This document shows, in pieces, positions 1 to 10,090 of a stretch of 51,861 nt of DNA. The translations under genes were made by a program, and so were the position numbers. Under the pieces are notes generated by a model, which did no database searches, was not told where the DNA came from, and saw nothing but the letters and a program-made list of their open reading frames with translations. The DNA comes from an uncultured Candidatus Saccharibacteria bacterium (GTDB taxonomy: Bacteria > Patescibacteriota > Minisyncoccia > Portnoybacterales > UBA2143). Positions within the stretch are counted from its first letter, which is position 1; each line of letters starts with the position of its first letter. The stretch lies in contig CAYPQZ010000009.1 of the NCBI GenBank assembly GCA_964413015.1, positions 1 to 51,861 of the forward strand. Direction: 5' to 3'.

Positions 1-91
1 TTTTGTAATGCCGGCCAAGCGCCCAGATCAACAAAGTCAGCAAAACTGGTATAGCTACGATAACAATAATTAAAACAATTTTGCTATCCAT
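1..91 (-). CDS. Partial gene (5' end only), membrane-anchored hypothetical protein
   Basis: Manual translation from ATG at 91: MDSKIVLIIVIVAIPVLLTLLIWALGRHYK, open to the window edge; hydrophobic N-terminal helix. Confidence 0.55.
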   Translation of the reverse strand, partial: MDSKIVLIIVIVAIPVLLTLLIWALGRHYK

Positions 92-193
92 GTTTTTAAT
101 TACAATCTTCACATAACATAAGTTATTGTATTCCCTCTTTGGAACTTTATCAAGCTTTTTCCGACAAAAATATGTGGATAATTCGCCAAAACC

Positions 194-254
194 AAAAACA
201 CCGCCCTATTAAAGCGGTGTTTCTGATTTATGGGTTGTAAAATTATAGCTGACA
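194..254. repeat. 61-bp intergenic element with hairpin, copy 1
   Basis: Ungapped match to 4451-4511 (47/61 identical by manual count); stem AAACACCGC...GCGGTGTTT. Confidence 0.7.
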
Positions 255-309
255 GATATGGATAAGAAGAAGATATGAACATTTTATGTTTTATTTGAGA
301 TGCCATTGT

Positions 310-1494
310 TCAAACAGCTTTGACAAAATGCCTTTTACCTTTTTGAATAATATCCCCTTTCTTAATAATTTTATCAAACGTTTCAATAATTTCTCCGTTA
401 ACTCGCACTCCTTTGTGTTGGATTAATCGACGCGCATCGCTTTTGCTTTTTGCTAAATTGCCTTTAACCAAAAAATCAACGATGATATTGGAAGACATTT
501 TTACGTTTTGCATGTCATCAGGAACATTTTTCTCCTGGATAACAGACACAAAATGATCCTTCCCTTTTTCGGCCCCTTTATTCCCCCAATAAATCTTTGT
601 AACCTCATAAGCCAATTCTATCTTTATATCGCGTGGATTAACTTTTTTTCCAGATAATTCTTTTTTGAATTCTTCAATTATTGCTATGGGAACTCGAGTG
701 CAATGTTCAAAATAAGGAATAATCATTTGATCCGTCATACTCATTACCTTACCAAACATTTCCTCCGGCGCATCTGAAAAATTAATCACATTACCCCAGC
801 TAGAACTCATTTTTCTGCCATCCAATCCGTCAATTAATATGTTAGTCATTATATCTTGTGGTTCTTGGTTATAAAAAACCTGCATTTCGCGTCCAGCCAG
901 AAGATTAAAACGCTGATCAGTGCCGCCCAATTCAACATCTGCTCTAACAGCTACAGAATCATATCCCTGCATCAACGGATACATTAATTCCCTTAATGAT
1001 ATCCTGTTTTCTTCCTTTAATCTCTGCTTAATATTCTTTCTAGCAATAAACTCAGCTAAAGAGAAAAGATCGGCCTGGCGGCAAATTTCTTTATAATCAA
1101 GTTTTTCCAGCCACTCTGAATTATATCTTACTTCGGTCTTGTCAATATCCAATATTTTGCCTACTTGATCAATGTAGGTTTTCATATTCGCCTTAACTTG
1201 TTTATCTGACAAAGCCGGTCTTTCTGAATGCTTATCGCTAGTATCGCCAATGGTGCCAGTGAAATCACCTACAATAAAAACTATTTGATGGCCTAATTCT
1301 TGAAAATCTTTTAATTTCAAAATGGGTATTGAACGCCCGATGTGCAAATGAGGACTAGTCGGATCAATACCAAGCTTAATTCGCAATTTCTTGCCTGACA
1401 ATAATTTCTTTTTTAAATGATTCAAATCAATAATTTCAAATATGCCGCGGGTCAATAATCTTTTTATTTTTTCGGGATCTTTATCGATTTTCAT
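310..1494 (-). CDS. tyrS: Tyrosine--tRNA ligase
   Basis: KLGIDPT, HIGR (HIGH-like), YPLMQGYD, GGTDQ, KMSSS and C-terminal S4-like domain. Confidence 0.97.
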   Translation of the reverse strand: MKIDKDPEKIKRLLTRGIFEIIDLNHLKKKLLSGKKLRIKLGIDPTSPHLHIGRSIPILKLKDFQELGHQIVFIVGDFTGTIGDTSDKHSERPALSDKQVKANMKTYIDQVGKILDIDKTEVRYNSEWLEKLDYKEICRQADLFSLAEFIARKNIKQRLKEENRISLRELMYPLMQGYDSVAVRADVELGGTDQRFNLLAGREMQVFYNQEPQDIMTNILIDGLDGRKMSSSWGNVINFSDAPEEMFGKVMSMTDQMIIPYFEHCTRVPIAIIEEFKKELSGKKVNPRDIKIELAYEVTKIYWGNKGAEKGKDHFVSVIQEKNVPDDMQNVKMSSNIIVDFLVKGNLAKSKSDARRLIQHKGVRVNGEIIETFDKIIKKGDIIQKGKRHFVKAV

Positions 1495-1514
1495 TTTATA
1501 ATTTCTTAAGTCAA

Positions 1515-2216
1515 TTACTTAAAATAATTTTGTTTATTAGTAATAATTTCCTTCAAAAATTTTTCAAAGTTTTTATCTTTATTCCATAATTTTTCTAATT
1601 TGCTTCGTATTTTTTCATGCGTAGGATAACCTTGGTCCTCTGTTAATAACAACTTCCCAAATTCTACATTTAGTAAAAACGTTAAAGCTTCTTTCAGCAT
1701 ATCTGTTTCTTTTTCGTTTAAATATGCTAAGCAAGTTTTTTTATAATAATATAAAAATTGCAAATGTAGTATTTCATGAGCAATTGTAGCAATACTGCTT
1801 GAAAGCGAATGCCATATTGAAATAAAGAAAGAATTATCTTTTTCACTATAAGGACACATAAAACCAGTGGTTATATAACATCTAAAATTACTAACATATA
1901 TTGGTTTTTGGGTGATTTTTTCCAATTTTTGAAAATATTTTAATTCAATATTTCCCCAGAGATCATTAATACTGTTTATTGTTTTATTTATTAAATCTTT
2001 CCGCAGTTTTTTCTTTGAATGATTTTTCAAATGTTTAATAATCAAATTAATCGCTTTTTCTTTAGAATTTTTTTGTATCAATTTTAAAAGATCATCAGGT
2101 ATAAAATCAACCTGCTTATTATAGCTAACTCCATAAAAATCGTTTCTGTCTTGAGCGATTTCAACCCAGCTTTTTGCATCTTTTTCTAAATTGTAATTAA
2201 AACTAACTTTAGCCAT
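1515..2216 (-). CDS. Hypothetical protein with HExxH zincin-like motif
   Basis: 233-aa ORF; IAHEILH followed about 20 aa later by LKEALT. Confidence 0.7.
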   Translation of the reverse strand: MAKVSFNYNLEKDAKSWVEIAQDRNDFYGVSYNKQVDFIPDDLLKLIQKNSKEKAINLIIKHLKNHSKKKLRKDLINKTINSINDLWGNIELKYFQKLEKITQKPIYVSNFRCYITTGFMCPYSEKDNSFFISIWHSLSSSIATIAHEILHLQFLYYYKKTCLAYLNEKETDMLKEALTFLLNVEFGKLLLTEDQGYPTHEKIRSKLEKLWNKDKNFEKFLKEIITNKQNYFK

Positions 2217-2237
2217 ATTTACCTAATTTCATCTATC

Positions 2238-2266
2238 AGTATATACCATTTGATTAAAAATGTTAA
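2238..2266 (-). promoter_or_regulatory. Putative sigma70 promoter for the HExxH gene (possibly also tyrS)
   Basis: Minus strand TTAACA-N17-TATACT upstream of ATG 2216. Confidence 0.5.
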
Positions 2267-2293
2267 GTGGCCCGTTTTAAATAACAGGCCACT
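2266..2293 (-). terminator. Hairpin at the 3' end of the radical SAM gene
   Basis: Minus strand AGTGGCCTGTT-atttaa-AACGGGCCACT, 11-bp stem with one G-U pair, followed by taacattttt. Confidence 0.55.
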
Positions 2294-3549
2294 CATTTTT
2301 TATAAGTTTTTTCATACAAATCCCATATCAGCCATTCTAAAGTATAAAGAGAATGAAAACAAAATGTGTCATCGATTTCGCGGATACTGCCATTTCTTAC
2401 AAAAGCATTGAATCCACAACCACCTCCACAAATTCCAATGGCTGGACACTGTTGGCATTTTTCCATATTTAAAGGAATCCTTTTATTCCATTCTTTCCAA
2501 AATGGATGTCGAAATGGATCAAAATCTGAAGTCATCTCAACAAAGTAATTCCCCGTTCCATAGAAACTGTGACAAATTCCGATTTTACCATTTGGACCAA
2601 CGGTTATTTGTCTGCCACAAGCAGAACAATCACGGTCATAGAAATACTGTTGAGTAAACGCATTAACCTTTCGCATAATACGGTCTTCCATTATTCCTTT
2701 TTCTCTACCAATTTTGAAACATTCAATCATTCCTTTCGCCACCTTAGAATAATAATCAGAATTATTAACACTAAATTTCTTACTGTCTAATAAAGGGTTG
2801 AAGCCCATTATGGTTATATCAAGATTATCAATAAACCATTGAAATATTTCAGGCATTTTATTGGCTGTTTCTTCTGTAATAGTGCAAGAAACTCCTACAT
2901 TTACGCCATAATCCTGAAGCATTTTTAGAGCTTTAACAGCTTTATCAAAAGTTCCCTCGCCAGAACAAGTTTTTCTATATTTATTGTGTAATTCACGAGG
3001 ACCATCTATTGACACGCCAACTTCTACTTCATTGTCAACTAAAACTCTGGCTATTTTAGAAGTCATTAGAGTCCCGTTAGTAACTAATGAAGTTCGTAAA
3101 GTTTCAGGGAGTTTGCCACTTGCCTTCAAGGCGTTAAGATAGTCTAACGACTGAATCAAAACATCAGAATTCAATAACGGTTCACCGCCATAGAAATTAA
3201 CCATTTTAATTTTATCCCAATTCGGATTATACTTTTCTATACAACGTACAAATAAATCAATTGCCATTTTAGCTGTTTGTAAAGACATTGGATTAACTAA
3301 AGGTCTTTTGTCAAACCCGCCTTCAAAAAAACAATAGCTACAAGACATATTACATCCCTCTGTCAAAATCAAATAAAGAATATTAATAATTTCTGTTGCA
3401 TTTAATCGGTCCCTCATTTTTTGAAGCTTAATGCTATCTTCTGTCTCGTCTGGTTGATAAGTCAAATCGTTAGTAAAAATTACTTTGTGGTCTAAAACAC
3501 TATACCATGCAAACACGCCATTTCTTTTAAATCTATGCCATGCTTTCAT
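2293..3549 (-). CDS. Radical SAM/SPASM-domain protein, putative peptide maturase (418 aa, start corrected to ATG 3549)
   Basis: CNMSCSYC (CxxxCxxC), FYGGEPLLN, SIDG..HNKYR; SPASM cysteines CSAC...ICH and CQQCPAIGICGGGC...FC; SD AAGGAGGA just before ATG 3549. Confidence 0.93.
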   Translation of the reverse strand: MKAWHRFKRNGVFAWYSVLDHKVIFTNDLTYQPDETEDSIKLQKMRDRLNATEIINILYLILTEGCNMSCSYCFFEGGFDKRPLVNPMSLQTAKMAIDLFVRCIEKYNPNWDKIKMVNFYGGEPLLNSDVLIQSLDYLNALKASGKLPETLRTSLVTNGTLMTSKIARVLVDNEVEVGVSIDGPRELHNKYRKTCSGEGTFDKAVKALKMLQDYGVNVGVSCTITEETANKMPEIFQWFIDNLDITIMGFNPLLDSKKFSVNNSDYYSKVAKGMIECFKIGREKGIMEDRIMRKVNAFTQQYFYDRDCSACGRQITVGPNGKIGICHSFYGTGNYFVEMTSDFDPFRHPFWKEWNKRIPLNMEKCQQCPAIGICGGGCGFNAFVRNGSIREIDDTFCFHSLYTLEWLIWDLYEKTYKK

Positions 3550-3577
3550 TGTTTTATCCTCCTTGTCAAAAAAATAT

Positions 3578-3600
3578 GGGGAGAATATTTTATCCTCCCC
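3578..3600 (-). terminator. Stem-loop plus U tract between the precursor peptide gene and the maturase gene
   Basis: Minus strand GGGGAGGATA-aaa-TATTCTCCCC followed by atattttttt. Confidence 0.6.
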
Positions 3601-3619
3601 AAAGATCTGGACGATTTCC

Positions 3620-3754
3620 CTATTTACACCGCGAGCCACTAGAACAGCTATCAGCACAAGGACCGCATTTACACTGCCATGACTGTTGGGCAGGGATATT
3701 CTTAAGAATTTTCTGACGAGCAACGGAAGTCGCTAAAAAAGTTTTTTTTGCCAT
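3620..3754 (-). CDS. Cys-rich putative RiPP precursor peptide, 44 aa: MAKKTFLATSVARQKILKNIPAQQSWQCKCGPCADSCSSGSRCK
   Basis: Not in the ORF track; manual translation ATG 3754 to TAG 3620; SD AGGAGGT 9 nt upstream; Cys-free basic leader and C-terminal core with 5 Cys; immediately upstream of the rSAM/SPASM gene. Confidence 0.85.
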   Translation of the reverse strand: MAKKTFLATSVARQKILKNIPAQQSWQCKCGPCADSCSSGSRCK

Positions 3755-3857
3755 TTCCTTCACACCTCCTTCCTTTCAGAATTTATTTCGCTATTTATAT
3801 TTCAAAGAGCAGTTTAGGATTTAGTCTAAAACCCCCCTAAATTTCATTTATATTTTC

Positions 3858-3885
3858 ATAATAACTATTTAATAGATTTTGTCAA
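3858..3885 (-). promoter_or_regulatory. Putative sigma70 promoter of the peptide-rSAM operon
   Basis: Minus strand TTGACA-N16-TATTAT about 100 nt upstream of ATG 3754. Confidence 0.5.
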
Positions 3886-4050
3886 TAGTGGCAGGCAATG
3901 TACATAAATATATAACGGTTTTCTAGAAACACCTGCCATGGCATAAACATAAGCACGACATCCTCTGCATACCATTTTATCTTTACAATTCATACATTTG
4001 CCATTTAGTTTATCACGGTTTCTAAAATCTATCATTTTTCTACTTTTCAT
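3865..4050 (-). pseudogene. C-terminal SPASM-domain fragment of a second radical SAM gene
   Basis: RDKLNGKCMNCKDKMVCRGCRAYVYAMAG matches the Cx2Cx5Cx2CRA pattern of NirJ/AhbD/PqqE-type SPASM tails; no rSAM core upstream. Confidence 0.6.
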
Positions 4051-4054
4051 TATA

Positions 4055-4372
4055 TTAGACAAGCTTGTTAAAAGGCCGGCTAGTAAGTTTAATAATTTCT
4101 TCAAAATTATCTTTGGGAGCAGACTTAACCCGGTGCTTAAAGCCACACTTGGCGCAACGGTAATAAACAGTATAGCCGTTGCTCTTGAATTCAGCGCCGA
4201 TTGGCTCCATCAAACCACCGCATCTAGACTTTCTATCGCCCGGATTTATATCAACGTGTTTAGACCATAGACATTCAGGGCAATGGTCAGTATAACCATT
4301 TCCCTTTACTTCATTGCCACACTTTTCACAGATAAAATCTTCTACACGTTTCTGAAATCTTTTTTCCTGCAT
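4055..4372 (-). CDS. RNHCP-domain zinc-finger protein
   Basis: FICEKCG, YTDHCPECLWSKHVD..PGDR..CGGLMEP and CAKCG, typical of the RNHCP family. Confidence 0.85.
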   Translation of the reverse strand: MQEKRFQKRVEDFICEKCGNEVKGNGYTDHCPECLWSKHVDINPGDRKSRCGGLMEPIGAEFKSNGYTVYYRCAKCGFKHRVKSAPKDNFEEIIKLTSRPFNKLV

Positions 4373-4412
4373 AAATTATCGCTTCATTATTGCCTTCGAC
4401 TTCTTTATTTAT

Positions 4413-4441
4413 ATATTAATACAAAATTATAATTTTGTCAA
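4413..4441 (-). promoter_or_regulatory. Putative promoter of the RNHCP gene with a perfect 18-bp palindrome (4421-4438)
   Basis: Minus strand TTGACA-N17-TAATAT; ACAAAATTATAATTTTGT is self-complementary. Confidence 0.55.
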
Positions 4442-4450
4442 AGAAACCTT

Positions 4451-4511
4451 AAAAACGTCGTTTTACTAAAACGGTGTTTCTGGGTTATGAGTTGTAAAAC
4501 AACAGTTGACA
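4451..4511. repeat. 61-bp intergenic element with hairpin, copy 2
   Basis: Ungapped match to 194-254. Confidence 0.7.
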
Positions 4512-4668
4512 TTAAAAATGCTTTAGGGCTTTAAATGCCGTCGGGCTTCCCGGTGTTTTAATCTTGTCCGGTTTTGTTCTCTTCCACGATATCTAGGGAA
4601 TTATTTACTTTTTTGTTTTAGGATTAATATTGATTTTTAGGGAAGAATAAGTTATATTTATTAAGCGT

Positions 4669-5403
4669 ATGAAAGAAATAGATATTTTGCCTTTAGAATT
4701 AAGGAAATTAGGCCTGACTGAAAAAGAAGTTCAGGTCTATTTATCTGCCTTGAAATTGGGCTATTCTTCGGTTCAGAAAATTGCCCAGGACGCCAAAATA
4801 AGCCGGCCAACCGCTTATGAAATAATAAAGTCCTTGAGCAAAAAGGACTTGATTATTGAATCCAAGGGGGAAAACCGCCGATATTTCACCGCCCAGTCGC
4901 CAGACGCGCTTTTGGGAATTTTAAAAAGGCAAAAAAAGGAACTGGACGAGAAAGAAAGAGAATTTATCCGAATTGTCGCCGCCTTGCGGAATAAATACCA
5001 TTTAGGCGACAAAAGGAAAATAAAGTTTTATAAAGATAAAAAAGGCCTGGAAATTTTAATGGATGATTTTCTGACAACCCAGAATAAAAAAATCCACGTT
5101 TTAATCAGTAATGAAAAAATCTGGCCCCATAAAAAAAGATTAGAGGCCTATCGTAAAATTAAAAGCCGGCTGGGGAAAATAGAAATCAAGGAAATTTGTT
5201 CAAAAAAATATTCCTCTGTTAAAGCTGACGATTATTTAGAGAAAAAAATATTCAAACAAAATTTGTTTGAATTTTCAGGAAACGTTATTATTTACAATAA
5301 GGTGGTTATTTTAGCCGAACAGTCCATCGGCATCTCCATTGAAGACAAAATTATTTACAACCTGATTAAATCATTCTTTATTTACATCTGGAAAAACTGC
5401 TAA
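4669..5403 (+). CDS. TrmB-family transcriptional regulator
   Basis: N-terminal wHTH LGLTEKEVQVYLSALKLG...IA..AKISRPTAYEIIKSL followed by a coiled coil. Confidence 0.88.
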   Translation: MKEIDILPLELRKLGLTEKEVQVYLSALKLGYSSVQKIAQDAKISRPTAYEIIKSLSKKDLIIESKGENRRYFTAQSPDALLGILKRQKKELDEKEREFIRIVAALRNKYHLGDKRKIKFYKDKKGLEILMDDFLTTQNKKIHVLISNEKIWPHKKRLEAYRKIKSRLGKIEIKEICSKKYSSVKADDYLEKKIFKQNLFEFSGNVIIYNKVVILAEQSIGISIEDKIIYNLIKSFFIYIWKNC

Positions 5404-6833
5404 ACCATCTTTAATAGCTTGGCTTGGCCGCCCTGTTGAGTGTCATCAATCACAATTCCCTTTTCAGCTAATTCCTTTCTTAGCTGGTCCGCTTTTTGGT
5501 AATCCTGATTATTTCTTGCTTCAGCCCGTTGGCTAAGCATTTTTTTTATGGCTGGACGGCTAACCAATCCAGACAGTTCCTTTTGATAACTTTTGTAAAG
5601 CGCCTCAATAAATCCCAAAACAGAATCAACTTCCAGAAGATATTTCTTAATTTCCTGCGCCTGTTTAAGATTAAGCTGAGGCATTACTTTGTTAATTTGA
5701 TTAACAAAATTGAAAAGCGAAGCCAACCCCAAACTTATATTCAAATCGTCATCCATTGATTTTTTAAAATCGTTCCGGCTTTTTAATATTTCTCCCTTAA
5801 TATCAAACTTGTTTTTACTTTTGTTTTTAATTGCTTCAAGATTGATTAAAAAGTCAAGCAGTTTTACCGCCGCTGATTCCGCTTCTTTAAAATCCTCCGG
5901 AGAAAAATTAAGAATCTTACGATAATGAGTCTTCAACAAAATAAATCTCATTAACAAAAGATTGTATCCTTTGTCTGCAAGATCCCTTAAGGTATAAAAA
6001 TTGCCCAGCGACTTGCTCATTTTTTTACCCTGAACCAAAAGATGTTCGTTATGCATCCAGTAATTAACGAATTTCTTTTTGGTGGCCGCCTCTGATTGGG
6101 CAATTTCATTGGTGTGGTGGGGAAAAATTAAATCAACTCCGCCAGTATGGATATCAAAATTTTCACCCAAATATTTCATTGACATAGCCGAACATTCTAT
6201 GTGCCAGCCAGGATGTCCTTTGCCAATTTCCGTGTCCCAAAAAACTTTACCGTGTTCCGGACGCCAAGCTTTCCATAAAGCGAAATCGTTAATTTGCTCT
6301 TTCTCATACTCATCCGAAATATTTAAACGCCCGTCGGCGTTATGTTTAAGGTCCTGTTTATCTAATTGAGCCAATTTTCCATAACCAGTAAATTTTGAAA
6401 TATCAAAATATACTGATTGGTCAGAAGTATAGCAATATCCATTTTTGTCTATTTTTTTAACAAGAGCGACTATTTCAGAAATGTGTTCGGTTGCTTTAGG
6501 CAAAATATCCGGCATCTGGATATTCAACGAATTAATATCTTCAATAAAGGCCTTTAAATAATAATTAGTGAATTCTTTCAGTGTCTGTTTAGCCTGCTGG
6601 CTATCCCTGATTGTTTTATCATCAACGTCGGTAATATTCATGACGTGCTTAACTTTAAACCCGCTGTATTTTAAATAGCGCTTTAATAAATCAGCAAAAA
6701 TATATGATCTGAAATTGCCAATATGGGCAAAATTATAAACTGTCGGCCCGCAAGTATACAGGCCAACTTGTCCTTTTTTAATAGGCTTAAACGTTTGAAC
6801 TTTTCTGGTTAAAGTATTAAAGACTTTAAGCAT
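5400..6833 (-). CDS. cysS: Cysteine--tRNA ligase
   Basis: YTCGPTVY, HIGN, NITDVDDK, DFALWK, PGWHIECSAMS, KMSKSLGN. Confidence 0.98.
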   Translation of the reverse strand: MLKVFNTLTRKVQTFKPIKKGQVGLYTCGPTVYNFAHIGNFRSYIFADLLKRYLKYSGFKVKHVMNITDVDDKTIRDSQQAKQTLKEFTNYYLKAFIEDINSLNIQMPDILPKATEHISEIVALVKKIDKNGYCYTSDQSVYFDISKFTGYGKLAQLDKQDLKHNADGRLNISDEYEKEQINDFALWKAWRPEHGKVFWDTEIGKGHPGWHIECSAMSMKYLGENFDIHTGGVDLIFPHHTNEIAQSEAATKKKFVNYWMHNEHLLVQGKKMSKSLGNFYTLRDLADKGYNLLLMRFILLKTHYRKILNFSPEDFKEAESAAVKLLDFLINLEAIKNKSKNKFDIKGEILKSRNDFKKSMDDDLNISLGLASLFNFVNQINKVMPQLNLKQAQEIKKYLLEVDSVLGFIEALYKSYQKELSGLVSRPAIKKMLSQRAEARNNQDYQKADQLRKELAEKGIVIDDTQQGGQAKLLKMV

Positions 6834-6845
6834 ATTTTTATCATA

Positions 6846-8030
6846 TCAGCTTTTTAAGGGTTTTTCAATTCTAATTCCCTGTCTGATTTTCCCCATTAAT
6901 TGATTCATAAACCGAAGATTATGAAAAGTGGCCAAACGCAAACCTAAAATTTCCTTAGTTCTGAAAAGATGATGCAAATAAGCCCGGCTGAAATTCTGAC
7001 AGACAGAGCAAGAACAATTTTTCATAATTGGCCGTTTGTCTTTCTGATAACAAGCGTTTAAAATGTTCAGTTCTTTTTTAGGAGTTAGAAAAATGCCATG
7101 GCGCGCCAACCGGGTTGGATAAACGCAGTCGAAAAGATCCACTCCTTTGGCAACTGATTTAACTAAATCGTCAGGATGGCCGATGCCTAAAAGATGGCGC
7201 GGCTTTTGCTCAGGCATTTCTGGAATAACCCAATCCAGAATCTGATACATATCTTTTTTAGTTTTACCTAAAGAACCGCCGATAGCTAGGCCTTCAAAAG
7301 GCAGTTGGCTGATGAACCGAGTGCTCTCTAAACGCAAATCTTTCCATTGCCCGCCCTGAATAATGCCAAAAAGCGCCTGCTCCGGTCGCCGAAGCTTTAG
7401 CGAAGACGGCCTTTTTTTACTATGTTCTTCTAAGCAAATTTCCGCCCAATTATGAGTCCGCTCCATTGATTCTTTGGTGTAGTTATACCCTGACAAAGGA
7501 GAGGTGCATTCATCAAAAGTGAAAATAATATCCGCTCCTAAAGCTTCTTGAATTTGGATTGATTTTTGGGGAGTTAAATAATGTTTGGAACCATCTAAAT
7601 GCGAGACAAATTCTACGCCTTTCTGATTAACCTTAAACAACTTGGTTCTGACCGGTTTATCCGGCTTATTGCTATTCCCCGGGAAAAAACCTGATAATTT
7701 GCCGACTCCATGCTCTAAGCCATATCCTAAACTAAAAACTTGGAAACCGCCGCTATCAGTAGCTATAGGGCCGGACCAATTCATAAATTTGTGCAGTCCG
7801 CCCATTTTTTCAATAACCTGATGTCCGGGCCTTAAGTAAAGATGGTAAGTATTGCTTAAAACAGCTTCAAAGCCGATTTCCTTAATTTCTTCCGGCGACA
7901 AACATTTGACGGTTGCCCGGGTAGCTACTGGATAAAAAGCCGGCGTATGGATTACTCCATGCGGCGTCTGAATAAGCCCCAAACGTGCTTTTGACTGTTT
8001 ACTTTTTTTGAGAATTTTGAAGAAAGACAT
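6846..8030 (-). CDS. tgt: tRNA-guanine transglycosylase
   Basis: NTYHL, TDSGGFQVFSL, FGIIQGG, PRHLLGIG, DLFDCV, CxCxxC zinc site. Confidence 0.97.
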   Translation of the reverse strand: MSFFKILKKSKQSKARLGLIQTPHGVIHTPAFYPVATRATVKCLSPEEIKEIGFEAVLSNTYHLYLRPGHQVIEKMGGLHKFMNWSGPIATDSGGFQVFSLGYGLEHGVGKLSGFFPGNSNKPDKPVRTKLFKVNQKGVEFVSHLDGSKHYLTPQKSIQIQEALGADIIFTFDECTSPLSGYNYTKESMERTHNWAEICLEEHSKKRPSSLKLRRPEQALFGIIQGGQWKDLRLESTRFISQLPFEGLAIGGSLGKTKKDMYQILDWVIPEMPEQKPRHLLGIGHPDDLVKSVAKGVDLFDCVYPTRLARHGIFLTPKKELNILNACYQKDKRPIMKNCSCSVCQNFSRAYLHHLFRTKEILGLRLATFHNLRFMNQLMGKIRQGIRIEKPLKS

Positions 8031-8041
8031 ATTTATTCTTC

Positions 8042-8233
8042 AAGGATAACCCTTAAAAATTTAAGGATTGTCATTGAGGATCACGTCCCTTTGCTGAAGG
8101 CAAAGGGCGTGTCCGCTTGTCCGCCTCTGGAGGGAAAGGACGACTCCTTAAATTTTAATAAGCTTCCATGATAAGAACAGTCTTTAAAATGACGCCCTTG
8201 TGCTCAAGGGACATCATTTTAAGGATTGTCCTT
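8042..8233. repeat. Composite REP/REPIN-like element (modules A+B), copy 1
   Basis: 8057-8233 matches 37068-37244 (177 nt, 9 mismatches by manual count); nested hairpins; overlaps the stop codon of the TrmH-family gene. Confidence 0.9.
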
Positions 8234-8701
8234 TAAATAGCTTCTCTCTACTTGACGTTCTTGAATGTAATAACCCGCCACACCGAAAGCGACTGAAACA
8301 TTTAAAGACTCCTTTTTGCCCAGCATTGGTAGATGAATAATCTGATCGGCCCTTTTTAAAACAGACGGAGAAATTCCCTTAATTTCATTGCCAACTACTA
8401 AAGCTAAAGGGAATTTCGGTTTAAATTTATTATATGCCAAACTATTTTTCGCCTGCTCTAAAGCGACAATAAAAACATTCTGCTTTTTTAATTTATCTAT
8501 TATCCGCCAAGTTTGCCAAGAATACTTCCAAGGAATATTTTTTTCGGCGCCTAAAGCGGTCTTGGATATTTTAGACTCAGGCGGTTGACCGCAAATGCCG
8601 CCTAAAAAAATTTTATCTACCGCTAAAGCGTCGGCGGTCCGGAAAATAGAGCCGATATTTTCCAAGCTTCGGATATTGTCACAAACCACATAAAAAGGCA
8701 T
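8219..8701 (-). CDS. TrmH/SpoU-family RNA methyltransferase
   Basis: DNIRSLENIGSIFRTAD, GNE..GIS, LPM.G.KESLNVSVA SPOUT motifs. Confidence 0.92.
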   Translation of the reverse strand: MPFYVVCDNIRSLENIGSIFRTADALAVDKIFLGGICGQPPESKISKTALGAEKNIPWKYSWQTWRIIDKLKKQNVFIVALEQAKNSLAYNKFKPKFPLALVVGNEIKGISPSVLKRADQIIHLPMLGKKESLNVSVAFGVAGYYIQERQVERSYLKDNP

Positions 8702-8719
8702 ACTTTAGTATAACACAAC

Positions 8720-8753
8720 AAGGACGACTCCTTAAATTTTTAAAGATTGTCCT
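8720..8753. repeat. Short REP-like doublet
   Basis: AAGGACGACTCCTTAAATTTTTAAAGATTGTCCTT, two inverted core variants. Confidence 0.75.
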
Positions 8754-8767
8754 TTCCCTTTTCAATA

Positions 8768-8796
8768 TTGACTAATTTACTATTATATGTTATAGT
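8768..8796 (+). promoter_or_regulatory. sigma70 promoter of the RlpA-like gene
   Basis: TTGACT-N17-TATAGT with extended -10 TG. Confidence 0.65.
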
Positions 8797-8844
8797 CAAA
8801 GACAATGGTTCTTTAAAACTCTAATTCAAAAGAAAGGAATAAGT

Positions 8845-9411
8845 ATGAAAAAGATATTGATAGGAATAGTAATGATAATATTTTTTATGGCGATAACGAC
8901 TTTTGGAGCAATAGCAACTGTTCCTTTCGCCAATAAATTGTTCAGTAGAAAAGAAAAAACTCAAAACCGTATTGTTTACTACGCCAGCGTAAGTTGGTAT
9001 GGGAAAAAGTTCCATGGAAGAAAAATGGCCAATGGAGAAATATATAACATGTATAATCCATTGGTGGTTGCTCATAAAACTTTACCTTTTAAAACTTTAG
9101 TAAAGATGACAAATCCTCTTAATGGCAAAATCACTTTTCTAGTAGTTAAGGACAGAGGTCCATATATCCCTGGTCGGCATTTTGATCTTTCGTATGCCGC
9201 GGCTAAAAAGCTTGGTATAGTTGAAAAGGGCATCGAGATGGTAAAAATAGAAATTATGACAGATAGTGAATTCTATTTTTATCGAATTAAAAAGGGAGAG
9301 ACACTATGGAGGCTGTTCGGGCATAAATGGCCTAAAATAGCCAAGATAAATAATCTAAATCACGAAAATATAAAAAGGGGACAAAAAATAATTGTCCCGT
9401 ATAAACTATAA
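8845..9411 (+). CDS. RlpA-family (DPBB) lytic transglycosylase with C-terminal LysM domain
   Basis: SWYGKKFHGRKMANGE, AHKTLPF, DRGPY, DLSYAAA; LysM-like YRIKKGETLW...IAKINNL...I..GQKIIVP; N-terminal signal or anchor. Confidence 0.9.
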   Translation: MKKILIGIVMIIFFMAITTFGAIATVPFANKLFSRKEKTQNRIVYYASVSWYGKKFHGRKMANGEIYNMYNPLVVAHKTLPFKTLVKMTNPLNGKITFLVVKDRGPYIPGRHFDLSYAAAKKLGIVEKGIEMVKIEIMTDSEFYFYRIKKGETLWRLFGHKWPKIAKINNLNHENIKRGQKIIVPYKL

Positions 9412-9430
9412 AGCAGAACCATCTATAAGA

Positions 9431-9462
9431 CCCAGTTGGATTAACCAACTGGGCCTTTTTTT
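9431..9462 (+). terminator. Intrinsic terminator of the RlpA-like gene
   Basis: CCCAGTTGG-attaa-CCAACTGGG followed by a T7 tract. Confidence 0.85.
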
Positions 9463-9470
9463 AACACGAA

Positions 9471-9572
9471 AAGAACAGTCTTTAAAAATTTAAGGATTGT
9501 CATAACTTGATAAGGACAGTCTTTAAAATGACGCTCTTGTGCTCAAGGGACATCATTTTAAGGACTGTCCTT
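9471..9572. repeat. REP-like cluster: short doublet plus module B (9512-9572)
   Basis: AAGGACAGTCTTTAAAATGACGCTCTTGTGCTCAAGGGACATCATTTTAAGGACTGTCCTT. Confidence 0.88.
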
Positions 9573-9588
9573 TGACTAATTTATCAAC

Positions 9589-9628
9589 AAAAAAAAGGCT
9601 GTTAGTCGTTATTTCTGACTAACAGCCT
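9589..9628 (-). terminator. Intrinsic terminator of the 9633-9983 gene
   Basis: Minus strand AGGCTGTTAGTC-N9-GACTAACAGCCT followed by a T tract. Confidence 0.85.
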
Positions 9629-9632
9629 AATT

Positions 9633-9983
9633 CTATTGATATGCATCTGGAGGCTGACGTTTCTCATGCCCCCAAGCACCTCTTCTAAGTTTATCGGTTA
9701 TCCAGCCACTTCTGTCCTTTTTCAATATGCCCTTCCCTGAAAAATAATCCCTGGCTTTCCGAGAAATAGAAATTTCTCTTTCGTCTAAAACAGATAAAAA
9801 TTCCCTGTTTAGCAAAAAGATATCTCCATTCGTTAAGTATGAACCCCTTTTTAACATATGAATGGCATTGGCACAAAGTGCCCTAGGCGCTAATAATTTA
9901 AGAGGCACATCTTCGTCAATTTCTATATTAATTAAATCATTAATAATCTTCCTAAAGGCTTCTATTTCTTCGTATATGGCCAT
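9633..9983 (-). CDS. Hypothetical protein (orphan-like)
   Basis: 116-aa ORF with SD GGAGG, own promoter TTGACT-N17-TATTAT (10040-10068) and own terminator. Confidence 0.7.
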   Translation of the reverse strand: MAIYEEIEAFRKIINDLINIEIDEDVPLKLLAPRALCANAIHMLKRGSYLTNGDIFLLNREFLSVLDEREISISRKARDYFSGKGILKKDRSGWITDKLRRGAWGHEKRQPPDAYQ

Positions 9984-10090
9984 CTTAACCCTCCATTTTA
10001 AGAGTTAAAAAATGTTAAAAAACTAATTCAATATATTGCATAATACCATATTTTAATTTTTAAGTCAACAGCTAGATTGTAGATACCCAT

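What the first reader, a model, noticed from the sequence alone, without database searches (positions are those of the whole stretch)
2266..3885. Unannotated Cys-rich precursor peptide plus radical SAM/SPASM maturase: candidate new RiPP system in a CPR-like genome
Seen: a 44-aa ORF missed by the track (3754-3620, MAKKTFLATSVARQKILKNIPAQQSWQCKCGPCADSCSSGSRCK) with SD AGGAGGT and an upstream TTGACA-N16-TATTAT promoter. It has a basic Cys-free leader and a C-x-C-x2-C-x3-C-x5-C core. About 70 nt downstream, a 418-aa rSAM/SPASM gene starts with its own SD and ends in a hairpin. Established: SCIFF/ranthipeptide and sactipeptide loci pair such peptides with rSAM/SPASM enzymes that make Cys-carbon thioether crosslinks, and CGPCADSCSS resembles the SCIFF CxxCxxSCxS spacing. 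Inference: a ranthipeptide-like product distinct from SCIFF (5 Cys, preceding W-Q-C that could allow an aromatic crosslink), unexpected in a biosynthetically reduced lineage.
Basis: partly seen in the sequence, partly recalled or inferred. Interest (0 to 1): 0.85.

Follow-up and report, generated by a model that had tools for sequence, protein, structure and literature searches.

The report
Three-gene cysteine-rich RiPP cassette
A tiny-genome bacterium carries a real, conserved kit of a 44-residue cysteine-rich peptide, a radical-SAM enzyme that probably cross-links it and a zinc-protease-like partner; the kit is a divergent member of a catalogued but chemically unstudied peptide family that is common in such bacteria.

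Summary
The 44-aa ORF (3620-3754, -), its SD and promoter-like site, the 418-aa rSAM/SPASM gene 70 nt downstream and the terminal hairpin are all present. The peptide is a real gene: it recurs upstream of the closest rSAM relatives, and its core shows 8 synonymous against 3 non-synonymous codon changes versus the 78%-identical locus.

The system is not categorically new. The enzyme's best family is NCBIfam TIGR04136 'FibroRumin system radical SAM peptide maturase' (291 bits, cut-off 400). The peptide clade matches FibroRumin-type precursors profile-to-profile (90%, E 1.6e-6). It is neither SCIFF nor PapB.

- A 233-aa HExxH...E zincin-fold protein (1515-2216) is a conserved third gene. It lies in 26 of 29 CPR loci and 0 of 18 Bacillota loci, and is probably the leader peptidase.
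- A terminator-like hairpin sits between the peptide and enzyme genes in 12 of 13 clade loci.
- The enzyme's N-terminal recognition domain has lost its helices. A predicted complex places the leader's Ile16-Leu17 on family-invariant residues elsewhere.

The cassette is patchy: 2 of 40 relatives and 7 of 400 phylum genomes have it. The chemistry, presumably thioether cross-links, is inferred and not shown.

The parts
3858..3885 (-). sigma-70-like promoter candidate for the precursor (TTGACA-16-TATTAT)
   Evidence: 11 of 12 matches, the best of 21 sites in 1400-4500 (shuffles give a mean of 14, sd 4). This is a consensus match only; no transcript data exist.
3764..3770 (-). Shine-Dalgarno AGGAGGT of the precursor
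   Evidence: read directly: 10 nt before the ATG. L091 has AAGGAGGT 8 nt before its ATG.
3620..3754 (-). 44-aa Cys-rich RiPP precursor. The leader is roughly residues 1-26 or 27 and carries the R-Q-K-I-L-K-N-I recognition motif. The core is roughly QCKCGPCADSCSSGSRCK.
   Evidence: It is conserved in the 13-row clade, with K29, C30, G31, C33 and C43 invariant. hhalign to FibroRumin-type peptides gives 90%. The core is under purifying selection. It is single-copy in the genome.
3577..3601 (-). terminator-like stem-loop (11 pairs plus a T-run) between the precursor and maturase genes; a probable attenuator or mRNA-stabilising 3' end that sets the peptide-to-enzyme ratio
   Evidence: scan. MFE -21.5 kcal/mol, z -3.8. 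A stem-loop stands at the same place, with a different sequence, in 12 of 13 clade loci.
3557..3564 (-). Shine-Dalgarno AAGGAGGA of the maturase
   Evidence: read directly: 7 nt before the ATG at 3549. The same start (MK[AV]WHRF) is used in L091, where no longer frame is open.
2293..3549 (-). 418-aa radical SAM/SPASM peptide maturase, FibroRumin-like, with an N-terminal domain truncated to a sheet only
2264..2295 (-). terminator-like hairpin (13 pairs) after the maturase gene
2238..2266 (-). promoter-like site (TTAACA-17-TATACT) ahead of the HExxH gene
   Evidence: 10 of 12 matches. Consensus match only.
1515..2216 (-). 233-aa HExxH...E zincin-fold protein; conserved third gene of the cassette and candidate leader peptidase
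3865..4050 (-). 61-aa ORF resembling the C-terminal tail of a SPASM domain (C-x2-C-x5-C-x2-C); membership of the cassette is uncertain
   Evidence: AhbD tail 36 bits, SPASM domain model 20.9 bits; one counterpart, L081:4720-4890, in 2 of 168 loci.

Best explanation
Window 1515-3885 (- strand) is a compact three-gene RiPP cassette.

(1) A promoter drives a 44-aa precursor. A leaky terminator or stabiliser hairpin follows it, so the peptide transcript should exceed the enzyme transcript.

(2) The 418-aa radical SAM/SPASM enzyme binds the leader in two ways. Leader residues 3-9 add as a strand onto the enzyme's vestigial N-terminal sheet. The conserved Ile16-Leu17 motif docks on family-invariant residues of the helix after the barrel (R282, R293, V295, F298) and of the C-terminal helix (L407, L411). 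This threads the Cys-rich core (about residues 27-37) into the barrel next to the first auxiliary cluster. There, 5'-deoxyadenosyl-radical H-abstraction most likely makes intramolecular Cys-S-to-carbon thioether rings, sacti- or ranthipeptide-like.

(3) The downstream 233-aa gluzincin-like HExxH...E protein most likely removes the leader.

The cassette is a divergent CPR-type variant of the NCBIfam 'FibroRumin' Cys-rich RiPP family.

Shown: gene anatomy, conservation, family relations and folds. Inferred: leader docking (model only), thioether chemistry, peptidase role, attenuation, and that a product is made at all.
For: Pairing:
- 110 of 145 homologous loci have an upstream Cys-rich sense ORF, against 4 of 102 in a control region.
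- 73 of 113 such loci carry a hydrophobic-hydrophobic-G-x-hydrophobic leader motif, against 36 of 363 other small ORFs.

Enzyme family:
- TIGR04136 scores 291 bits, far above the next family, PapB, at 160 bits.
- C66/C70/C73 and the seven SPASM Cys (308, 326, 365, 368, 374, 378, 397) are invariant in 27 sequences.
- The AF2 model has pLDDT 92.2. Its best fold match is CteB 5wgg at E 7.9e-21, TM 0.77. The next matches are anSME, TigE and ChlB.

Peptide:
- The clade alignment A2 against FibroRumin-type A3 gives hhalign 90%, E 1.6e-6, over 42 columns that include the leader motif.
- The core has 8 synonymous and 3 non-synonymous changes.

Leader docking:
- The predicted complex scores 0.88 against a best control of 0.00 (3 controls).
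- That mark was reached by 58 of 80 solved complexes and 2 of 110 mismatched pairs.
- The three runs agree in at least 70% of contacts, and the partner's pLDDT is 60-71. My own alignments were used, so these counts hold only roughly.
- The contacts with the least expected error are Ile16 with residues 295, 298, 299, 407, 410 and 411, and Leu7/Ala8 with residues 23-25.

Third gene:
- The HMM finds it in 76 of 140 loci that have at least 800 nt after the rSAM. In 58 it is directly downstream on the same strand.
- H147, E148, H151 and E176 are invariant in 30 sequences.
- The model has pLDDT 95.7.
- VIA gives Z 9.0, rmsd 3.0-3.1, 155 aligned residues to M1 aminopeptidase catalytic domains.
- The family profile hits the ACE active-site region at E 7.9e-6.

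Hairpin: present in 12 of 13 clade loci.

No sulfatase was found in a 97%-complete genome.
Against: - The rSAM is below TIGR04136's curated cut-off (291 against 400 bits), and the peptide does not hit TIGR04135 at all.
- No member of this family was found chemically characterised, so the cross-link type is pure inference.
- The complex pass may be memory of solved rSAM-peptide complexes. 5wgg, 5v1t, 9gm3 and 4k38 all appear among the fold matches.
- Foldseek matches of the HExxH model are weak, best E 0.18. Z 9 is only just above the tool's stated background of 7-8.
- HExxH proteins in RiPP clusters can be alpha-KG/Fe hydroxylases rather than proteases (PMC12636437, passages).
- The HExxH gene has its own promoter-like site behind a terminator-like hairpin, so co-transcription is doubtful.
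- No exporter lies within about 5 kb. The neighbours are TyrRS, CysRS, Tgt and SpoU.
- 35 of 145 homologous loci show no upstream Cys-rich ORF by my criterion.
Confidence: 0.65

Rival explanations
1. The pair is a RiPP precursor and maturase, but the radical SAM enzyme makes something other than thioethers. Candidates are C-C cyclophane links (for example using W26), epimerisation, or another Cys-directed change.
For: - rSAM/SPASM enzymes with similar folds make C-C and C-O links and other changes (review PMC10114670, passages).
- Cyclophane-forming families score about 100 bits: GrrM 104, YhhB 102. SuiB and ChlB are among the fold matches.
- W26 precedes the core in the window and in L091.
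Against: - The only invariant core residues besides K29 and G31 are Cys (C30, C33, C43). W26 is absent from the other 10 clade peptides.
- The best-scoring families with a named chemistry are thioether formers: PapB 160 bits, QhpD-type 139 bits. The best fold match is CteB.
Confidence: 0.17
2. The cassette makes an intracellular peptide-derived cofactor or metal- or redox-active small molecule, on the PQQ or mycofactocin logic of peptide plus rSAM/SPASM plus peptidase. It would not be a secreted bioactive peptide.
For: - The gene set is peptide, rSAM/SPASM and metallopeptidase only.
- There is no transporter or immunity gene within about 5 kb, and the neighbours are housekeeping genes.
- The cassette is widespread in tiny genomes.
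- The likeness to the PQQ and mycofactocin pathways is recalled knowledge.
Against: - Cores differ greatly in length and Cys pattern between clades, even within one genus. G402 has a CDCTACGSCRCTPCK core and a 41%-identical enzyme.
- The cassette is patchy: 2 of 40 relatives and 7 of 400 in the phylum. That fits an accessory, diversifying trait better than a cofactor.
Confidence: 0.1
3. The HExxH protein is not a leader peptidase but an alpha-ketoglutarate/Fe(II) HExxH-type oxidase, a hydroxylase or oxidative backbone cleaver, that tailors the peptide.
For: PMC12636437 (abstract and passages) reports that HExxH proteins long annotated as metallopeptidases act as alpha-KG-dependent hydroxylases in RiPP pathways. 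Some are fused to rSAM domains, and their fold is reminiscent of zincins.
Against: - 0 of 30 family members hit any NCBIfam HExxH-hydroxylase model at E<=1.
- The invariant fourth residue is a Glu 25 residues after the motif, as in gluzincins.
- The profile matches the ACE active-site region, and the best fold matches are M1 peptidases.
- These small-genome bacteria are generally regarded as anaerobic fermenters (recalled), which would disfavour an O2-dependent step.
Confidence: 0.15
4. The enzyme is an anaerobic sulfatase-maturase-like protein modifier and the small ORF is incidental.
For: anSME is the best PDB sequence hit, 4k37 at E 2.2e-23, and TIGR03942 scores 131 bits.
Against: - 131 bits is far below the 349-bit cut-off.
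- No sulfatase domain was found in the 97%-complete genome.
- The peptide co-varies with the enzyme clade.
Confidence: 0.02

Closest known systems
FibroRumin system (NCBIfam TIGR04135 precursor and TIGR04136 radical SAM maturase)
   Same: - It is the enzyme's best-scoring family by a wide margin: 291 bits against 160 for the next.
- The layout is the same, with a Cys-rich precursor directly upstream.
- The precursors share a leader motif and a Cys core by profile-profile comparison: 90%, E 1.6e-6.
   Different: - The enzyme is below the 400-bit cut-off, while Lachnospiraceae, Ruminococcus and Selenomonas members score 794-955 bits.
- The peptide does not hit TIGR04135.
- There is one precursor instead of the usual two seen in those loci.
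- The core is shorter, with 4-5 Cys.
- The N-terminal domain is about 35-40 residues shorter.
- An HExxH companion gene is present here but in 0 of 18 Bacillota loci.
SCIFF / thermocellin with CteB (ranthipeptide)
   Same: - CteB is the best structural match: 5wgg, E 7.9e-21, TM 0.77.
- Both have a Cys-rich C-terminal core and a single maturase.
   Different: - TIGR03974 scores only 107 bits against a cut-off of 425.
- No SCIFF precursor model hits the peptide at E<=10.
- The leader motif is different.
- The companion HExxH gene is not a feature I know of SCIFF loci (recalled).
PapB / freyrasin (ranthipeptide, Cys-Asp links)
   Same: It is the second-best NCBIfam family, 160 bits over residues 57-391. 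Both are rSAM/SPASM thioether formers.
   Different: - The score is below the 340-bit cut-off.
- The core has a single Asp (D35), which is not conserved in the clade. The repeated C-x3-D motif of freyrasin (recalled) is absent.
M1/M2-type gluzincin metallopeptidases (for the third gene)
   Same: - HExxH plus a downstream Glu is invariant.
- The fold aligns to M1 catalytic domains at Z 9.0.
- The family profile hits the ACE active-site region at E 7.9e-6.
   Different: - It is a stand-alone protein of about 235 aa with no Pfam or NCBIfam family over cut-off.
- It forms its own family of 1072 representative clusters at E<=1e-10.
- No activity is known.

Membership tests
Radical SAM / SPASM superfamily | CxxxCxxC radical SAM cluster motif and Radical_SAM domain | tested here: met
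   PF04055 at E 1.4e-21. C66, C70 and C73 are invariant in 27 sequences.
Radical SAM / SPASM superfamily | Seven-Cys SPASM motif (C...G-x4-C, C-x2-C-x5-C-x3-C, C) for two auxiliary clusters. The motif is recalled from memory. | tested here: met
   C308, C326 (with G321-x4), C365, C368, C374, C378 and C397 are invariant. Pfam's SPASM model itself did not hit at E<=0.1. The fold matches CteB and anSME over the C-terminal part.
FibroRumin maturase, TIGR04136 (equivalog) | Score at or above the curated cut-off of 400 bits | tested here: not met
   291.4 bits. This is the best of 84 families but below the cut-off. Controls: L126, L139 and L141 score 794-955 bits and L108 scores 401 bits.
FibroRumin precursor, TIGR04135 | Score at or above 45 bits | tested here: not met
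   No hit at E<=10 for the window peptide. The clade relative L013 scores 21.7 bits and the L126 peptides 68 and 52 bits. Profile-profile homology of the clade gives 90%.
FibroRumin system | Cys-rich precursor encoded directly upstream of the maturase on the same strand | tested here: met
   110 of 145 loci.
SCIFF / CteB-type ranthipeptide | Maturase at or above 425 bits to TIGR03974, and a SCIFF-type precursor | tested here: not met
   107.4 bits. The peptide has no NCBIfam hit at E<=10. That the library holds the SCIFF precursor model is recalled, not checked.
PapB-type ranthipeptide | Maturase at or above 340 bits to NF047865, and repeated Cys-x3-Asp/Glu motifs in the core (the motif is recalled) | tested here: not met
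   160.2 bits. The core has one Asp, which is not conserved in the clade.
Sacti- or ranthipeptide (by chemistry) | Cys sulfur linked to an alpha (sacti) or beta/gamma (ranthi) carbon | not testable with these tools
   Needs MS/MS and NMR of the product.
RiPP recognition element (PqqD-like RRE) at the N-terminus | Three-stranded sheet followed by a three-helix winged-helix bundle (recalled definition) | tested here: not met
   - The model has strands 4-9, 12-17 and 23-26, then a single helix 38-51.
- There are 65 residues before CxxxCxxC. 143 of 163 relatives have 90-129.
- The gap is visible in alignment A1.
Anaerobic sulfatase maturase | At or above 349 bits to TIGR03942, and a sulfatase substrate in the genome | tested here: not met
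   130.9 bits. PF00884 was not found in the 97%-complete genome.
Gluzincin metallopeptidase (third gene) | HExxH plus a downstream Glu as third ligand, on a zincin fold | tested here: met
   - H147, E148, H151 and E176 are invariant in 30 sequences.
- Z 9.0 to M1 catalytic domains.
- The ACE active-site region is hit at E 7.9e-6.
- Proteolytic activity was not tested.
alpha-KG-dependent HExxH hydroxylase (IPR026337 type) | Sequence membership of that family | tested here: inconclusive
   0 of 30 members hit such a model in NCBIfam at E<=1. I could not confirm which model in the library stands for that family.

The most novel reading that the evidence does not exclude
The CPR-type cassette (Cys-rich precursor, FibroRumin-like maturase and a previously unnamed stand-alone gluzincin family) is a distinct, minimal RiPP pathway. 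Three things would set it apart. Its cross-link chemistry has not yet been described. Its leader is read by the enzyme's bridging and C-terminal helices rather than by an RRE, which this clade has shed. Its hypervariable products serve episymbiotic CPR and DPANN cells in dealing with hosts or competitors.
Probability: 0.25. Interest if true: 0.7.

Novelty: new variant of a known kind. Interest (0 to 1): 0.5.

Why it matters
Bacteria with tiny genomes of this kind are thought to have almost no secondary metabolism. Yet this three-gene kit recurs across many of their lineages and in small archaea. It is swapped between close relatives, and its peptide cores vary widely. That pattern fits molecules used against or towards other cells.

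My searches found no paper on the family: 0 papers for 'FibroRumin', TIGR04135 or TIGR04136. A single co-expression experiment could therefore define a new cross-link pattern and the first function for an unnamed zincin family of at least 1072 clusters. It would also test RRE-independent leader recognition.

Tried and rejected
- Word-based search for the peptide in the 5.8-billion-protein collection: no candidate. This was expected for an uncalled small ORF and is no evidence of novelty.
- NCBIfam and Pfam on the peptide: nothing, even at E<=10.
- Rfam over 1400-4700: only two chance-level rows, E 0.043 and 0.87, both far below gathering scores.
- Sequencing runs: no RNA holder listed. The four DNA holders may be the source samples.
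- Antisense strand as a control for upstream Cys-rich ORFs: rejected. Cys and Ala codons are reverse complements (TGC/GCA), so it is not independent, and it gave 30 of 145. I used a downstream region instead.
- Foldseek of the HExxH model: no match at E<=0.001. I followed with VIA wide.
- Protein Atlas on the HExxH protein: only unnamed clusters.
- Peptidase_C39 in the genome: one 24-bit hit on another contig in a 428-aa frame, not linked to the cassette.
- GC profile of 1-10000: no clear foreign island. GC is 0.26-0.29 over the HExxH gene and 0.33-0.37 around it.
- Same-locus cassette replacement: not supported. The same-genus cassette locus L174 holds none of the window's flanking genes.
- Literature on ranthipeptides in Patescibacteria: only genome-mining mentions. 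One paper states its Patescibacteria MAGs had no BGCs (PMC11613949, one passage; PMC12016038, passages). The listings were seen as titles and abstract starts only.
The supplemental dataset of PMC10288494 (3421 sacti- and ranthipeptide precursors, named in the passages) may already list relatives of this peptide, and I could not see it.
Full report
**What is there**

On the minus strand of window 1515-3885 there are three genes in a row.

- The first is a 44-aa ORF (3620-3754). AGGAGGT stands 10 nt before its ATG. Further upstream is the best promoter-like site of the region, TTGACA-16-TATTAT at 3885..3858, with 11 of 12 matches.
- Seventy nucleotides downstream, behind its own AAGGAGGA, starts a 418-aa radical SAM gene (2293-3549). 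It ends in a 13-pair hairpin at 2295..2264.
- The genome holding the window has 699 kb in 15 contigs and is 97% complete. The closest enzyme relatives are named Patescibacteria.

**Is the small ORF real?**

Yes.

- tblastn finds it upstream of the two nearest enzyme relatives: L091 (enzyme 78% identical) at E 5.7e-15 and L011 at E 1.5e-6.
- Between the window and L091 the 18 core codons are 7 identical, 8 synonymous and 3 non-synonymous. The 26 leader codons are 8, 4 and 14. That is the pattern of a translated gene with a constrained core.
- A 12-sequence alignment of the clade's peptides (A2) has K29, C30, G31, C33 and C43 invariant and L17 nearly so.
- The peptide is single-copy in the genome.
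- It is absent from the large protein collection. The window's own enzyme entry there is a 454-aa form whose start would run into the peptide ORF in another frame, which would explain why gene callers miss the peptide. In L091 no longer frame is open, and the start MK[AV]WHRF is shared.

I collected 80 metagenome loci and 80 genome loci around enzyme relatives, plus loci from whole-genome searches.

- Of 163 loci with a tblastn score of at least 200 bits, 135 have an ORF ending within 900 nt upstream with at least 3 Cys in its last 45 residues. 28 do not, and at least six of those have under 120 nt of upstream sequence.
- With a stricter rule (at least 4 Cys in the last 40 residues, within 500 nt), 110 of 145 loci qualify. 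A control region downstream gives 4 of 102.
- The antisense strand gave 30 of 145. It is not an independent control, because Cys and Ala codons are reverse complements.
- 73 of 113 loci with such ORFs carry a hydrophobic-hydrophobic-G-x-hydrophobic leader motif, against 36 of 363 other small ORFs in the same regions.
- The window peptide has K in place of G (K-I-L-K-N-I), as does L091.

**What family is it?**

- The enzyme's best NCBIfam hit is TIGR04136, 'FibroRumin system radical SAM peptide maturase', at 291 bits. This is below the curated 400-bit cut-off.
- Other NCBIfam scores are all below their cut-offs too:

| Family | Bits | Cut-off |
|---|---|---|
| PapB | 160 | 340 |
| QhpD type | 139 | 453 |
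| anSME | 131 | 349 |
| SCIFF maturase | 107 | 425 |

- As controls, enzymes from Lachnospiraceae, Ruminococcus and Selenomonas loci score 794-955 bits and one Paceibacterota enzyme scores 401. The window's clade scores 282-314.
- The paired precursor model TIGR04135 hits the Lachnospiraceae peptides at 68 and 52 bits (cut-off 45). It hits a clade relative (L013) at 21.7 bits and the window peptide not at all.
- Profile against profile, the window's peptide clade and 14 FibroRumin-type peptides match at 90% probability, E 1.6e-6, over 42 columns that include the leader motif and the Cys core.
- So this is a divergent relative of a family that curators have already defined. It is neither SCIFF nor PapB.
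- I found no paper on the family: 0 papers hold 'FibroRumin', TIGR04135 or TIGR04136.

**The enzyme**

- C66/C70/C73 and seven C-terminal Cys (308, 326, 365, 368, 374, 378, 397) are invariant in 27 sequences. They fit the SPASM pattern, which I recall from memory.
- The AF2 model is confident: pLDDT 92.2, pTM 0.91.
- Its best fold matches are CteB (5wgg, E 7.9e-21, TM 0.77), anSME, TigE and ChlB.
- By sequence the best solved relatives are anSME, 8vpo and CteB.
- The N-terminal domain is unusual. Only three strands (4-9, 12-17, 23-26) and one helix (38-51) precede the barrel.
- There are 65 residues before CxxxCxxC. 143 of 163 relatives have 90-129.
- The alignment shows a gap of about 35-40 residues shared with P0002 and P0003, and partly with P0004.

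**How the leader may be read**

A complex prediction of enzyme plus peptide, each with its alignment, scored 0.88 against a best control of 0.00 (3 controls).

- That mark was reached by 58 of 80 solved complexes and 2 of 110 mismatched pairs.
- The three runs agree in at least 70% of contacts, and the peptide's pLDDT is 60-71. The counts hold only roughly, because my own alignments were used.
- Leader residues 3-9 lie along strand 22-28.
- Ile16 and Leu17-Asn19 touch residues 282-299 and 407-417.
- Residues 27-37 reach the barrel and 306-310, which includes C308.
- Several contact residues (R282, R293, V295, F298, L407, L411) are family-invariant.
- Like complexes have been solved: CteB, SuiB-SuiA, ChlB-leader and anSME-peptide all appear. 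The pass may therefore reflect that likeness. It supports binding but does not show it.

**The third gene**

- tblastn and an HMM of 30 homologues find the 233-aa protein's family in 88 of 168 loci.
- It is in 76 of the 140 loci that have at least 800 nt after the enzyme gene. In 58 it is directly downstream on the same strand.
- H147, E148, H151 and E176 are invariant.
- No Pfam or NCBIfam family passes its cut-off. Weak member hits go to zincin families: DUF3267 in 7 of 30, Peptidase_M78 in 4 of 30, and also DUF5700, SprT-like and DUF2268.
- The model is confident, pLDDT 95.7.
- Foldseek gives only weak rows, best E 0.18, nearly all M1-type peptidases.
- VIA gives Z 9.0, rmsd 3.0-3.1, 155 aligned residues to M1 catalytic domains. 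This is just above the tool's stated background.
- The family profile hits the ACE active-site region at E 7.9e-6.
- The family has 1072 representative clusters at E<=1e-10, almost all stand-alone proteins of 220-250 aa. The Atlas knows them only as hypothetical proteins of CPR and small archaea.
- I read it as a gluzincin-like leader peptidase. The main rival is an alpha-KG/Fe HExxH oxidase, as recently found in other RiPP pathways (PMC12636437, abstract and passages). 0 of 30 members hit such a model, which I count as inconclusive.

**Distribution**

- On a FastTree of 163 enzymes, the window groups with L091 (support 100) and L011 (99). They sit inside a 13-row clade (96) whose members all have the HExxH gene and K-C-G-[AP]-C peptides.
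- Of the 80 genome loci, 29 are CPR by title, and 26 of them have the HExxH gene. Of the 51 others, 5 have it. Bacillota have 0 of 18.
- The cassette is patchy. 7 of 400 other genomes of the phylum have a match at E<=1e-40, and 2 of 40 relatives at E<=1e-30.
- One same-genus genome (98% complete) showed no match with this query. The other carries a different variant elsewhere in its genome, with a 41%-identical enzyme and a CDCTACGSCRCTPCK core.

**The hairpin between the genes**

- A terminator-like stem (3601..3577, 11 pairs, then a T-run) stands between the peptide and enzyme genes.
- A stem-loop of different sequence stands at the same place in 12 of 13 clade loci. In the thirteenth, L092, my enzyme start was probably set too early.
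- I infer partial termination or transcript stabilisation that favours the peptide, as is known for other bacteriocin operons (recalled).

**Verdict**

It is wrong in claiming a new system and in the aromatic-link idea.
- The chemistry is unknown. Thioether rings are the best guess from the enzyme's relatives.
- No transcript evidence exists, and no exporter is nearby.
- I rate it a new variant of a known kind, with interest 0.5.

Noticed in passing
window 3865-4050 (-); L081:4720-4890: A 61-aa ORF just upstream of the precursor promoter looks like the free-standing tail of a SPASM domain (C-x2-C-x5-C-x2-C). It scores 36 bits to the AhbD tail and 20.9 bits to the SPASM domain model. One counterpart of 56 aa lies downstream of the cassette in L081. 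None was seen in the other 166 loci. It could be a remnant or a small Fe-S or Cys-rich protein; this is undecided.
   Followed up: partly
window 4055-4372 (-); L097:3804-4016: An RNHCP-domain zinc-ribbon protein (PF12647, E 7e-27) sits next to the cassette. A 45%-identical one lies near the maturase in L097. That is 2 of 168 loci, so the link may be chance.
   Followed up: partly
window 4669-5403 (+); L081:1179-1892; L034:155-571: A TrmB-family HTH regulator is transcribed divergently from the cassette side. A 60%-identical copy sits in the same divergent position beside a different cassette variant in L081 (enzyme 35% identical), and a 30% copy lies in L034. It is a possible cassette regulator.
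   Followed up: partly
window 3550-3657 (-): The protein collection holds the window's enzyme as a 454-aa form (P0001). That form would start inside the peptide ORF in another frame. It is probably an over-extended gene call that hides the precursor.
   Followed up: partly
L174 (G402:C14), - strand 1020-1181: A same-genus genome carries a different cassette variant at another locus. Its peptide ends in CDCTACGSCRCTPCK, its enzyme is 41% identical, and its HExxH protein is 24% identical.
   Followed up: partly
L175/L176 (G409:C3:11912-14442): A same-family genome has two tandem rSAM/SPASM genes, 28-31% identical to the window's enzyme. No Cys-rich ORF was found by my scan of L176.
   Followed up: no
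L126, L076, L082, L088, L133, L144, L146 and others: Firmicutes-type FibroRumin loci usually encode two different precursors side by side: an MSAN...CACVACNSCTCACSC type and an MI.Y...SQCTGCMCNCRCSCSG type. Both end in an acidic ...EW tail.
   Followed up: partly
window 3755-3857 (-): The roughly 100-nt leader between the promoter-like site and the precursor start codon contains an inverted repeat (TTTAGG...CCTAAA). It was not folded or compared, and Rfam found nothing there.
   Followed up: no
G000:C8:173429-173872 (L002): The genome has a second radical SAM gene (493-aa frame) with only a weak match to TIGR04136 (40 bits). It was not examined.
   Followed up: no
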